A stretch of DNA of 4,439 nucleotides, from IMG/VR virus record IMGVR_UViG_3300029157_000003. One strand, written 5' to 3'. The DNA comes from a virus. Its lineage: Duplodnaviria; Heunggongvirae; Uroviricota; Caudoviricetes. Under the pieces are notes generated by a model. The model saw only the letters and a program-made list of their open reading frames with translations, was not told the DNA's origin and ran no database searches. Of this stretch, positions 528-604 are shown piece by piece (position 1 is the stretch's first letter; every line of letters starts with the position of its first letter). The translations under genes were made by a program, and so were the position numbers.

Positions 528-539
528 CGCACCTCCAAT

Positions 540-555
540 ATTGAGTTTTCTCAAT
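540..555. promoter_or_regulatory. Candidate operator: 16-bp palindrome ATTGAG-TTTT-CTCAAT (OR-like copy)
   Basis: Perfect inverted half-sites ATTGAG / CTCAAT with a 4-bp spacer, overlapping the predicted -10 and transcription start of the leftward promoter. Its core TTGAGTTTTCTCA recurs exactly at 1077-1089. Confidence 0.5.
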
Positions 556-583
556 GCTAATCACTCAAGGAATCTCAAGTCAA
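554..583 (-). promoter_or_regulatory. Putative sigma70 promoter for the leftward Cro-like/YdaT operon
   Basis: On the minus strand: -35 TTGACT (plus coordinates 583-578), 18-bp spacer, -10 TAGCAT (559-554), then the operator palindrome, the RBS and ATG 527. Sequence prediction only. Confidence 0.4.
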
Positions 584-604
584 GGATTATTAAGATATCT
601 AAAT

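What the first reader, a model, noticed from the sequence alone, without database searches (positions are those of the whole stretch)
528..604. Divergent control region with additional phased CTCAA half-sites
Besides the palindrome at 540-555, CTCAAG recurs at 564-569 and 574-579, 10 bp apart, which is one helical turn. Together with TTGAG at 541 this makes four half-sites in 40 bp between the two divergent starts (ATG 527 on minus, ATG 605 on plus). It looks like a multi-site operator that could support cooperative binding or a repressor/Cro switch. The repressor gene has no obvious SD and only a very short leader, suggesting a leaderless, PRM-like transcript.
Basis: partly seen in the sequence, partly recalled or inferred. 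Interest (0 to 1): 0.45.

Follow-up and report, generated by a model that had tools for sequence, protein, structure and literature searches.

The report
P22-type three-operator prophage immunity switch
The two CTCAAG copies are the two arms of the weak middle operator in an ordinary three-operator lysis/lysogeny switch of an E. coli lambdoid prophage, a close relative of the phage P22 and Qin (DicA/DicC) switches.

Summary
CTCAAG lies at 564-569 and 574-579, between a Cro-like gene (ATG 527, minus) and a 135-aa repressor gene (ATG 605, plus).

The window is an E. coli lambdoid prophage (mEp460/ompW type) laid out like cryptic prophage Qin: dicC-like, dicA-like, ydfABC, dicF, dicB.

The 77-bp spacer matches phage P22 immC OR at the DNA level:
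- 563-580 is 15/18 identical to P22 OR2.
- 568-596 carries the same -35 (AGGAAT), spacing and -10 (TAAGAT) as annotated P22 PRM.
- 583..554 (minus) is a PR-like promoter.

So the repeats are the arms of one degenerate middle operator (Qin's "Om"). Centres are 24 and 25 bp apart.

Across 12 heteroimmune relatives only AG-N4-CT stays fixed in the middle site, and the direct-repeat identity is lost.

The leaderless reading is supported by mapped starts in homologues: P22 PRM 4 nt and K-12 dicA 3 nt before the ATG.

Protein binding to the middle site is inferred. In Qin, isolated Om was not bound by DicA.

Verdict: a new member of a well-known kind, of low interest.

The parts
300..527 (-). Cro-like regulator gene (dicC-like, 75 aa)
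   Evidence: Pfam P22_Cro, E = 3e-16. 70% identical to K-12 DicC. Matches solved P22 Cro 1rzs, E = 2e-12.
532..536 (-). Shine-Dalgarno of the Cro-like gene (GGAGG on the minus strand, 4 nt before the ATG)
   Evidence: Read directly from the sequence.
540..555 (.). Strong operator ATTGAG-TTTT-CTCAAT. Equivalent to Qin Oc and P22 OR1. Covers the predicted +1 (~547) and the -10 edge of the PR-like promoter.
   Evidence: Best matrix hit in the window, 19.3 bits. Core 541-554 is almost invariant in about 110 loci of the same type: two single-locus changes, at 549 and 552. Qin Oc is the site shown in vivo to bind DicA.
554..583 (-). PR-like promoter of the Cro-like operon: -35 TTGACT (583..578), 18-nt spacer, -10 TAGCAT (559..554), predicted start ~547
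   Evidence: Promoter scan. Aligns with annotated P22 PR, TTGACT..GATAAT. GTCAA is fixed 26-27 nt from the repressor ATG in nearly all relatives compared. Natural variants keep TAnnAT in all but one.
563..580 (.). Weak middle operator ACTCAAG-GAAT-CTCAAGT. This is the finding: both CTCAAG copies are its arms. Equivalent to Qin Om and P22 OR2.
   Evidence: 15/18 identical to P22 OR2. Fifth-best matrix hit, 6.3 bits. AG (568-569) and CT (574-575) are the only (near-)invariant bases between the -10 and -35 across 12 immunity types.
568..596 (+). PRM-like promoter of the repressor gene: -35 AGGAAT (568-573), 17-nt spacer, -10 TAAGAT (591-596), predicted start ~603
   Evidence: Same hexamers and spacing as annotated P22 PRM. 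A TAnnAT hexamer sits at the equivalent place in Qin. There the mapped dicA start lies 7 nt after it.
589..604 (.). Third operator ATTAAG-ATAT-CTAAAT. Equivalent to Qin Oa and P22 OR3. Overlaps the repressor -10 and predicted start, and ends at the ATG.
   Evidence: Fourth-best matrix hit, 12.1 bits. Arms conserved across all 12 non-Qin types. Same position as P22 OR3.
605..1012 (+). Repressor gene (dicA-like, 135 aa: HTH domain plus helical C-terminal hairpin, no peptidase domain)
   Evidence: Pfam HTH_3 only. 57% identical to K-12 DicA. Model pLDDT 87; the N-terminal domain matches P22 c2 with TM 0.95 and 48% identity.
1032..1062 (+). Terminator-like hairpin after the repressor gene, followed by TTTATCTT
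   Evidence: RNA fold -11.3 kcal/mol, z = -2.9. Not found by the consensus terminator scan.
1076..1091 (.). Promoter-distal left operator CTTGAG-TTTT-CTCATC (aligns with P22 OL2)
   Evidence: 15.4 bits. Alignment to P22 OL.
1100..1128 (+). PL-like promoter of the ydfABC-dicF-dicB operon (dicBp homologue): TTGACG, 17-nt spacer, TAAATT
   Evidence: Promoter scan. Aligns with the P22 PL region.
1112..1127 (.). Promoter-proximal left operator AATGAG-AAAA-CTAAAT, overlapping the PL-like -10 (aligns with P22 OL1)
   Evidence: 15.5 bits. Alignment to P22 OL.

Best explanation
Region 528-604 is the right-operator region of a P22-type lambdoid immunity switch, in its DicA/DicC (Qin-like) version.

It holds three 16-18 bp inverted-repeat operators with centres at 547.5, 571.5 and 596.5. 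These interleave with two overlapping divergent promoters.

The two CTCAAG copies are the arms of the middle operator (563-580). That operator also contains the poor -35 (AGGAAT) of the repressor promoter and abuts the -35 of the lytic promoter.

Proposed working; the steps are inferred unless marked:
1. Repressor dimers fill the strong site 540-555, over the +1 and -10 edge of the lytic promoter. They are then helped onto the weak middle site.
2. This shuts off the Cro-like operon and allows, or stimulates, the weak repressor promoter. In Qin it is shown genetically that DicA is needed for dicA promoter activity and represses dicC.
3. The repressor mRNA starts about 2 nt before its ATG and is translated without an SD. 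Mapped starts exist for the P22 and K-12 homologues only.
4. Excess repressor, or the Cro-like protein once the repressor is inactivated, occupies 589-604 over the -10 and +1 of the repressor promoter and switches it off. In Qin and O157, DicC is shown to repress dicA.
5. The same repressor blocks the PL-like promoter through 1076-1091 and 1112-1127.
6. The repressor has no cleavable peptidase domain, so induction should go through a Rem-type antirepressor rather than RecA-mediated cleavage.
For: Identity of the element:
- The window is 99-100% identical to phage mEp460_ev081 and to an ompW-site prophage found in many E. coli genomes.
- Gene order matches Qin, including DicF at 2081-2132.

Protein homology:
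- The repressor is 57% identical to DicA. Its DNA-binding domain matches P22 c2 (E = 8e-16; TM 0.95).
- The Cro-like protein is 70% identical to DicC and matches P22 Cro.

DNA homology to P22 immC:
- The spacer is 77 bp against 80 bp.
- The middle site is 15/18 identical to OR2.
- The -35 and -10 hexamers and the spacer length match annotated PRM.
- A PR-like promoter is present.
- Operator centres lie at -6.5, -31.5 and -55.5 from the predicted start, against -5.5, -30.5 and -53.5 in P22.

Operator statistics:
- The five best hits of an independently trained matrix are exactly the five proposed operators.
- None of 4084 background positions reaches the middle-site score.

Comparison across 12 immunity types:
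- The middle site keeps AG-N4-CT in a fixed register inside a promoter spacer.
- At least one arm matches the locus's own strong operator at 4/5 or better in 12 of 12 types.
- In L097 the C-to-A change in the right arm occurs in both the strong and the middle operator.

Literature:
- Qin has Oc, Om and Oa. DicA bound at Oc represses dicC and is needed for dicA transcription (PMC3441716).
- DicC binds on both sides of dicA and represses it (PMC11430063).
- dicA mRNA starts 3 nt before the ATG (PMC4681348 supplement).
- Rem is the antirepressor in Qin (bioRxiv 10.1101/2023.04.14.536235). A rem gene lies in the identical prophage of strain B-1109.
Against: - No binding or transcript data exist for this immunity type.
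- The middle site scores only 6.3 bits, barely above an intragenic hit (5.6 bits). Its left arm (TCAAG) departs from TTGAG at two core positions.
- In Qin, DicA did not bind isolated Om or Oa in an in vivo assay (data not shown in PMC3441716).
- The test of internal inverted against direct symmetry across 12 types is a tie: 0.55 against 0.56.
- P22 c2 cooperates through a C-terminal domain that this repressor lacks. Cooperativity would need the unrelated helical C-terminal hairpin, which is untested.
- The middle site is centred near -31.5 of the repressor promoter and overlaps its -35. How occupancy there could stimulate rather than block transcription is unclear.
Confidence: 0.8

Rival explanations
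1. The middle site is a vestigial operator and is now promoter DNA only. The CTCAAG repeats descend from a P22-like OR2. They are kept because they form the spacer and -35 edge of the lytic promoter and the -35 of the repressor promoter. No regulator binds them any longer. The switch then runs on two sites: 540-555 for the repressor and 589-604 for the Cro-like protein.
For: - In Qin, DicA bound only Oc, not isolated Om or Oa.
- The middle site has a low matrix score and a degenerate left arm.
- Its central AGGAAT equals the P22 PRM -35, so promoter function could explain part of the conservation.
Against: - Promoter spacers are not normally conserved base by base. Yet exactly the two most informative operator positions of each arm (AG and CT) are fixed in 12 types, while the PRM -35-like centre varies: GAAT, GAAA, AATT, ACAT, GATG.
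- In L097 the right arm changes together with that locus's strong operator.
- The Qin test used isolated sites, which would miss cooperative filling.
Confidence: 0.14
2. The two CTCAAG (and the two TCAAGGA at 565 and 580) are true direct repeats. They would be recognised by a different protein that binds tandem repeats around a -35. Candidates are the CII-like YdaT-family tetramer encoded just downstream of the Cro-like gene, or a host factor.
For: - Lambda CII binds direct repeats flanking a -35 (established knowledge).
- In Rac, YdaT footprints inside the racR-ydaS spacer over the ydaS promoter and lowers racR expression (PMC11879457).
- A YdaT-family ORF lies at 1-316.
- The repeat is 6/6 in this window.
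Against: - The direct-repeat identity falls to 2-4/6 in relatives and is already broken within the same immunity type (TTCAAG in about 11 loci).
- Known YdaT boxes are inverted repeats, TTGATT-N6-AATCAA. The only such match in the window is at 306-323, not in the spacer.
- The site is 15/18 identical to a bona fide repressor operator of P22.
Confidence: 0.04

Closest known systems
Phage P22 immC right operator (OR1-OR2-OR3 with PR and PRM; c2 repressor and Cro)
   Same: - Divergent repressor and cro genes 77-80 bp apart.
- Homologous DNA-binding domain (48% identity, TM 0.95) and homologous Cro.
- Three inverted-repeat operators 23-25 bp apart, the last abutting the repressor ATG.
- The middle operator is 15/18 identical.
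- Identical PRM -35 and -10 hexamers and spacing.
- TTGACT -35 of PR at the edge of the middle operator.
- Near-leaderless repressor mRNA in P22; here that is only predicted.

   Different: - Operators are 16 bp (6+4+6, core TTGAG) rather than 18 bp (7+4+7, core TTAAG).
- The repressor is 135 aa with a helical C-terminal hairpin. It lacks the LexA-like cleavable domain that P22 c2 uses for cooperativity and RecA-dependent induction.
- The left operator has two recognisable sites, not three.
Qin cryptic prophage dicA-dicC immunity region (Oc, Om, Oa; dicBp) of E. coli K-12
   Same: - Same gene order: dicC-like, dicA-like, ydfA, ydfB, ydfC, dicF, dicB.
- Same repressor architecture (57% identity) and a Cro-like protein 70% identical.
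- Same three-site layout, with the lytic -35 at a fixed 26-27 nt from the repressor ATG.
- Leaderless dicA mRNA mapped in K-12.
- A Rem antirepressor gene in the same prophage type.

   Different: - Different immunity specificity. Qin operators are TGTTAG-N6-CTAACA; here they are TTGAG-N4-CTCAA.
- The recognition helix is SHVSVSQW in Qin and SGSSISLW here.
- The better-preserved arm of the middle site is the Cro-proximal one in Qin and the repressor-proximal one here.
Phage lambda OR (OR1-OR2-OR3, PR/PRM, CI/Cro)
   Same: - Logic of a bistable switch with three operators about 24 bp apart.
- Strong, weak and auto-repressing sites.
- Leaderless repressor mRNA.
   Different: - No sequence homology.
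- In lambda, OR2 lies about -42 from the PRM start and abuts the -35 (textbook value, not tested here).
- Here, as in P22, the middle site is centred about -31 and overlaps the -35.
- The two promoters overlap: the starts are about 56 bp apart, against about 82 bp in lambda.
Gifsy-type non-cleavable repressors controlled by antirepressors (GfoR/GfhR)
   Same: A short repressor without a peptidase domain. Induction is expected through an antirepressor (Rem in Qin) rather than by cleavage.
   Different: No sequence comparison was made here. This is a functional analogy only.

Membership tests
P22-type immC right operator | Divergent repressor and cro genes separated by about 80 bp | tested here: met
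   77 bp (528-604) against 80 bp in P22.
P22-type immC right operator | Repressor DNA-binding domain homologous to the P22 c2 N-terminal domain | tested here: met
   phmmer against 1adr, E = 8e-16. Foldseek against 3jxb: TM 0.95, rmsd 0.9 A, 48% identity.
P22-type immC right operator | Cro homologous to P22 Cro | tested here: met
   Pfam P22_Cro, 59 bits against a cutoff of 30. 1rzs, E = 2e-12.
P22-type immC right operator | Three inverted-repeat operators 23-25 bp centre to centre, the last abutting the repressor start codon | tested here: met
   Centres at 547.5, 571.5 and 596.5. All three are among the top five matrix hits. P22 centres are 23 and 25 bp apart.
P22-type immC right operator | PRM and PR promoters overlapping the operators, with PRM giving a near-leaderless mRNA | tested here: inconclusive
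   The promoter hexamers and spacing are identical to annotated P22 PRM. No transcript data exist for this element. The start is inferred from P22 and K-12 dicA.
P22-type immC right operator | Repressor carries a LexA/S24-like C-terminal domain (RecA-dependent cleavage, cooperativity) | tested here: not met
   135 aa with only HTH families in Pfam. The C-terminal part is a helical hairpin. The element works like the P22 operator but is not a c2-type repressor system.
P22-type immC right operator | Repressor and Cro physically bind each of the three sites | not testable with these tools
   Needs footprinting or EMSA.
DicA/DicC (Qin-type) immunity module | 135-aa DicA-like repressor with the conserved LQCSPTWILFGDEDK...NFNxLF C-terminal region | tested here: met
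   57% identity to K-12 DicA over 127 residues; the motifs are invariant.
DicA/DicC (Qin-type) immunity module | Divergent DicC-like Cro followed by a YdaT-family gene | tested here: met
   70% identity to DicC. YdaT_toxin hit on 1-316: E = 8e-4, just under the curated cutoff, and the ORF is cut by the window end. RefSeq names it a YdaT family protein.
DicA/DicC (Qin-type) immunity module | Repressor-controlled downstream operon ydfABC-dicF-dicB | tested here: met
   DUF1391/YdfA. ydfB, ydfC and dicB are annotated in the identical prophage. DicF Rfam hit, 76.7 bits. Two operators at the PL-like promoter.
DicA/DicC (Qin-type) immunity module | Oc-Om-Oa arrangement in the spacer | tested here: met
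   Same positions relative to the lytic -35 and the repressor ATG in Qin and here.
DicA/DicC (Qin-type) immunity module | Same immunity specificity as Qin | tested here: not met
   The operator arms and spacer length differ, and so does the recognition helix. It is a heteroimmune member.
DicA/DicC (Qin-type) immunity module | Rem-type antirepressor in the same prophage | tested here: met
   A rem gene is annotated about 6 kb away in the 100%-identical prophage of strain B-1109. It lies outside the window, and its action on this repressor is untested.
Lambda OR | Middle operator about -42 from the repressor promoter start (abutting, not overlapping, the -35) | tested here: not met
   Predicted centre is about -31.5, as in P22 (-30.5). 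The lambda value comes from textbook knowledge.

The most novel reading that the evidence does not exclude
In this family the switch may have split specificity.

The repressor-proximal operator (589-604) is conserved in its arms across 12 heteroimmune types. So is the Cro-like recognition helix (SAVSQW).

The Cro-proximal strong operator changes together with the repressor's recognition helix: S-x-S-S goes with TTGAG-TTTT-CTCAA, and S-x-A-S/T goes with TTGTTnAG...AACAA.

If 589-604 is essentially a Cro-like site shared by heteroimmune prophages, the Cro-like protein of one phage could shut off the repressor gene of a resident prophage with a different immunity. It could thereby help to induce that prophage.
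Probability: 0.15. Interest if true: 0.45.

Novelty: new member of a known kind. Interest (0 to 1): 0.14.

Why it matters
It matters little for new biology. It shows that a widespread E. coli prophage immunity type uses the classical P22/Qin three-operator switch with its own operator sequence, TTGAG-N4-CTCAA. This type covers at least 80% of the query in 797 of 5426 complete E. coli genomes.

The practical gains are three:
- A correct parse of the control region: three operators, two overlapping promoters, and a leaderless repressor mRNA.
- A defined operator motif for annotating DicA-family prophages that control the dicF/dicB cell-division inhibitors.
- A small comparative data set showing which operator tracks which regulator.

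Tried and rejected
1. Hexamer count as evidence. CTCAAG occurs 3 times against 2.0 expected, which is not significant. I replaced this with a clustering test and an independent matrix.
2. Internal symmetry test. Inverted against direct identity of the two arms across 12 types is a tie, 0.55 against 0.56. It does not discriminate on its own.
3. The first CTCAAG as the right arm of a different operator, with its left arm at 554-559 (ATGCTA). Only 2/6 match, so rejected by reading the sequence.
4. CTTGAG copies as alternative -35 elements of the lytic promoter. The spacers would be 13 nt, or the -10 would be CTCAAT with a start inside the SD. Rejected.
5. The longer repressor ORF from ATG 554 (152 aa, chosen by some gene callers). 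The extension is not conserved: relatives have no ATG there. RefSeq aa.
6. A fourth operator at 608-623 (AACGAG-AAAA-CTTTAG), inside the first codons. It has a poor matrix score and is not conserved in relatives.
7. YdaT-box (TTGATT-N6-AATCAA) in the spacer. None is there; the only match, with 3 mismatches, is at 306-323.
8. A third left operator like P22 OL3. None is found; the hairpin occupies that place.
9. Reg-Seq data for dicA and dicC (PMC7567609). They recover the DicA site at dicC but found no active dicA promoter, so they do not help with Om.
10. One look-up (P0072) found no contig.

Full report
**What the window is**

The 4439 bases are 99-100% identical to phage mEp460_ev081 and to a prophage at the ompW site of many E. 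coli genomes. The 1-kb query is covered at 80% or more in 797 of 5426 complete genomes.

The gene order is that of cryptic prophage Qin of K-12:

| Feature | Coordinates | Strand |
|---|---|---|
| YdaT-family ORF | 1-316 | - |
| Cro-like gene | 300-527 | - |
| Spacer | 528-604 | . |
| 135-aa HTH repressor gene | 605-1012 | + |
| PL-like promoter | 1100-1128 | + |
| ydfA, ydfB, ydfC | 1205-1738 | + |
| DicF sRNA | 2081-2132 | + |
| dicB (start masked by the N run 2274-2373) | about 2307-2495 | + |
| Long exonuclease gene | 2374 to the window end | + |

The repressor is 57% identical to K-12 DicA and the Cro-like protein is 70% identical to DicC.

**Checking the observation**

All stated sequence facts are correct.
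- CTCAAG lies at 564-569 and 574-579.
- The palindrome ATTGAG-TTTT-CTCAAT lies at 540-555.
- ATG 527 (-) is preceded by GGAGG. ATG 605 (+) has no SD.

The hexamer count alone is not unusual: 3 against 2.0 expected. A pair within 15 nt occurs in only 1.1% of dinucleotide shuffles.

The pattern TTGAG-N4-CTCAA with up to 2 mismatches has five matches in the whole window. All five lie in the two regulatory regions: 541-554, 565-578, 590-603, 1077-1090 and 1113-1126.

I then built a half-site matrix from 21 strong operators of relatives only. It included no site from this window and no middle or repressor-proximal site. Its top five hits in the window are the same five places, with 564-579 fifth at 6.3 bits. 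None of 4084 background positions reaches that score, and shuffling 556-588 gives P = 0.02. The middle site is therefore real but weak.

**What the repeats are**

The decisive comparison is with phage P22 immC (record BK000583).

| Feature | P22 | This window |
|---|---|---|
| Spacer between repressor and cro | 80 bp, three annotated operators | 77 bp |
| Middle operator | ACTAAAG-GAAT-CTTTAGT (OR2) | ACTCAAG-GAAT-CTCAAGT at 563-580 (15/18 identical) |
| Repressor promoter | AGGAAT-17 nt-TAAGAT (annotated PRM) | AGGAAT-17 nt-TAAGAT at 568-596 |
| Lytic promoter | TTGACT...GATAAT (PR) | TTGACT-18 nt-TAGCAT at 583..554 (minus) |

The division of the annotated 66-bp P22 operator block into three 18-mers is my own, from their symmetry.

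So the two CTCAAG copies are the left and right arms of the homologue of P22 OR2 (Qin's "Om").
- The right copy, read on the other strand, is CTTGAG. This is the same half-site as in the strong operator at 1076-1081.
- The left copy is a degenerate arm.

The 9-10 bp offset is the arm-to-arm distance of every operator here. It is not phasing between independent sites.

It corresponds to P22 OR3 and Qin Oa, and it ends at the repressor ATG.

Operator centres are 24 and 25 bp apart here, against 23 and 25 bp in P22.

**Comparative test**

I collected about 130 loci of the same or related immunity types and nine more diverse DicA-family loci.

Within the window's own type:
- The spacer is almost invariant.
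- The variable positions are 536-540, 555-558 and 564. At 555-558 the lytic -10 keeps TAnnAT in all variants but one.
- At 564, about 11 loci read TTCAAG for the first repeat.

Across 12 distinct types, all sequences can be anchored on the GTCAA of the lytic -35. It lies 26-27 nt from the repressor ATG in nearly all of them. In that register the middle site reads:
- TCAAG-GAAT-CTCAA (window)
- GCAAG-GAAA-CTCAG
- ATGAG-GAAT-CTCAG
- TTGAG-GAAA-CTAAA
- GTGAG-AATT-CTTTA
- GTAAG-ACAT-ATCAA, and others

Only AG (568-569) and CT (574-575) are (near-)invariant between the -10 and -35 of the lytic promoter. These are the inner, most informative operator positions.

The direct-repeat identity (6/6 here) falls to 2-4/6 in relatives. 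In 12 of 12 types at least one arm matches that locus's own strong operator at 4/5 or better. In L097 the C-to-A change of the right arm occurs in both the strong and the middle operator.

A simple score of inverted against direct self-similarity does not discriminate: 0.55 against 0.56.

**Leaderless repressor mRNA**

- P22 PRM is annotated to start 4 nt before the c2 ATG.
- K-12 dicA mRNA starts 3 nt before its ATG by differential RNA-seq, checked by RLM-RT-PCR (PMC4681348). That is 7 nt after a TAGCAT hexamer lying in Oa.
- The equivalent hexamer here is TAAGAT (591-596). This predicts a start near 603, 2 nt before the ATG.

Relative to that start the three operators are centred at -6.5, -31.5 and -55.5. 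The P22 values are -5.5, -30.5 and -53.5. This differs from lambda, where OR2 lies near -42 (textbook value). Here the two promoters overlap, with predicted starts about 56 bp apart.

**How it most likely works**

The parts shown experimentally are all in homologues:
- In Qin, DicA binds Oc, represses dicC, and is required for dicA promoter activity (PMC3441716).
- DicC binds on both sides of dicA and represses it (PMC11430063; PMC6915034).
- Rem relieves DicA repression.

What I infer for this window:
1. The repressor fills 540-555 and, with help from that site, the weak middle site. This closes the lytic promoter and favours the weak repressor promoter.
2. Site 589-604 turns the repressor promoter off when it is occupied by the Cro-like protein or by excess repressor.
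3. Sites 1076-1091 and 1112-1127 close the PL-like promoter of the ydfABC-dicF-dicB operon.

The strong sites have an A-tract centre (TTTT/AAAA). The middle site has GAAT. For P22 and 434 repressors, central A-tracts raise affinity by indirect readout (PMC3317979). This fits a graded affinity, though that is inference.

The repressor model (pLDDT 87) has a P22 c2-like HTH domain and a C-terminal helical hairpin. It has no peptidase domain. Induction by cleavage is therefore unlikely, and any cooperativity must use a domain different from that of P22 c2.

**Caveats**

- There are no binding or transcript data for this immunity type.
- In Qin, isolated Om and Oa were not bound by DicA in vivo (data not shown in the paper). 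The middle site may be filled only cooperatively, may be mainly a Cro-like site, or may be vestigial.
- Its centre doubles as the PRM-like -35, which could explain part of its conservation.

**Comparison with known systems, and novelty**

The region works like, and is homologous to, P22 immC OR and the Qin dicA-dicC region.

It is not a c2-type system, because it has no cleavable domain. It is heteroimmune to Qin, with different arms, spacer length and recognition helix.

It is a new, uncharacterised specificity variant of a kind described since the 1980s. Interest is low.

**By-product**

The Cro-proximal strong operator changes with the repressor's recognition helix. The repressor-proximal operator and the Cro-like helix (SAVSQW) stay constant across 12 types. 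This is the opposite of what physical linkage would give. It suggests each outer operator is tuned to a different regulator.

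Noticed in passing
window 2081-2132 (+): DicF small RNA: Rfam RF00039, 76.7 bits, full length. It lies in the long non-coding stretch between ydfC and dicB.
   Followed up: yes
window 2274-2373: A run of 100 N. By comparison with the identical prophage in NZ_CP117971 (dicB at locus 8058-8246, about window 2307-2495), it masks the region just upstream of dicB and the first third of the dicB gene.
   Followed up: partly
window 463-476 and 680-693: A perfect 14-nt inverted repeat, ACGCCAGCAGCTTT / AAAGCTGCTGGCGT, lies in the two divergent regulator genes. 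In both it encodes K-A-A-G-V of the helix-turn-helix, so the two mRNAs share an identical 14-mer. This could be chance given the shared motif, or a trace of common origin or gene conversion.
   Followed up: no
window 306-323: GTGATT-TTCATT-GTTCAA resembles the YdaT box (TTGATT-N6-AATCAA) with 3 mismatches. It sits at the junction of the Cro-like and YdaT-like genes, the same place as the footprinted boxes of CP-933P and Rac. The match count in the window is not above chance (1 against 3.1 expected); only the position is suggestive. It could mark a PRE-like establishment promoter for the repressor.
   Followed up: partly
window 1032-1062 (+): A hairpin (-11.3 kcal/mol, z = -2.9) followed by TTTATCTT lies between the repressor stop codon and the PL-like promoter. 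It is probably the terminator of the repressor transcript. Similar sequence is present in relatives.
   Followed up: partly
window 947-962: An operator-like GTTGAG-AATT-TTAATC (5.6 bits, sixth-best hit) lies inside the repressor gene. It overlaps the codons of the conserved RVENFN motif, so it is probably a by-product of coding.
   Followed up: no
window 540-555 and 589-604; loci L006-L008, L097, L136-L144: Across 12 heteroimmune relatives the strong operator next to the cro-like gene co-varies with the repressor's recognition helix. The operator next to the repressor gene and the Cro-like recognition helix (SAVSQW) stay constant.
   Followed up: partly
loci L004, L005, L009 (genome contigs): Contigs filed under Bacillota, Veillonella parvula and Collinsella metagenome-assembled genomes carry this E. 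coli prophage module. L004 and L005 are 99% identical to the window's repressor. L009 is near-identical to the Qin spacer (1 mismatch in 93 nt). These are most likely mis-binned enterobacterial contigs.
   Followed up: no
window 2374-4439 (+): A long ORF runs off the window end. It has a C-terminal Rv2179c-like 3'-5' exonuclease domain (E = 4e-48) and is annotated 'exonuclease' in RefSeq. It is the RecE-position gene of this prophage.
   Followed up: no
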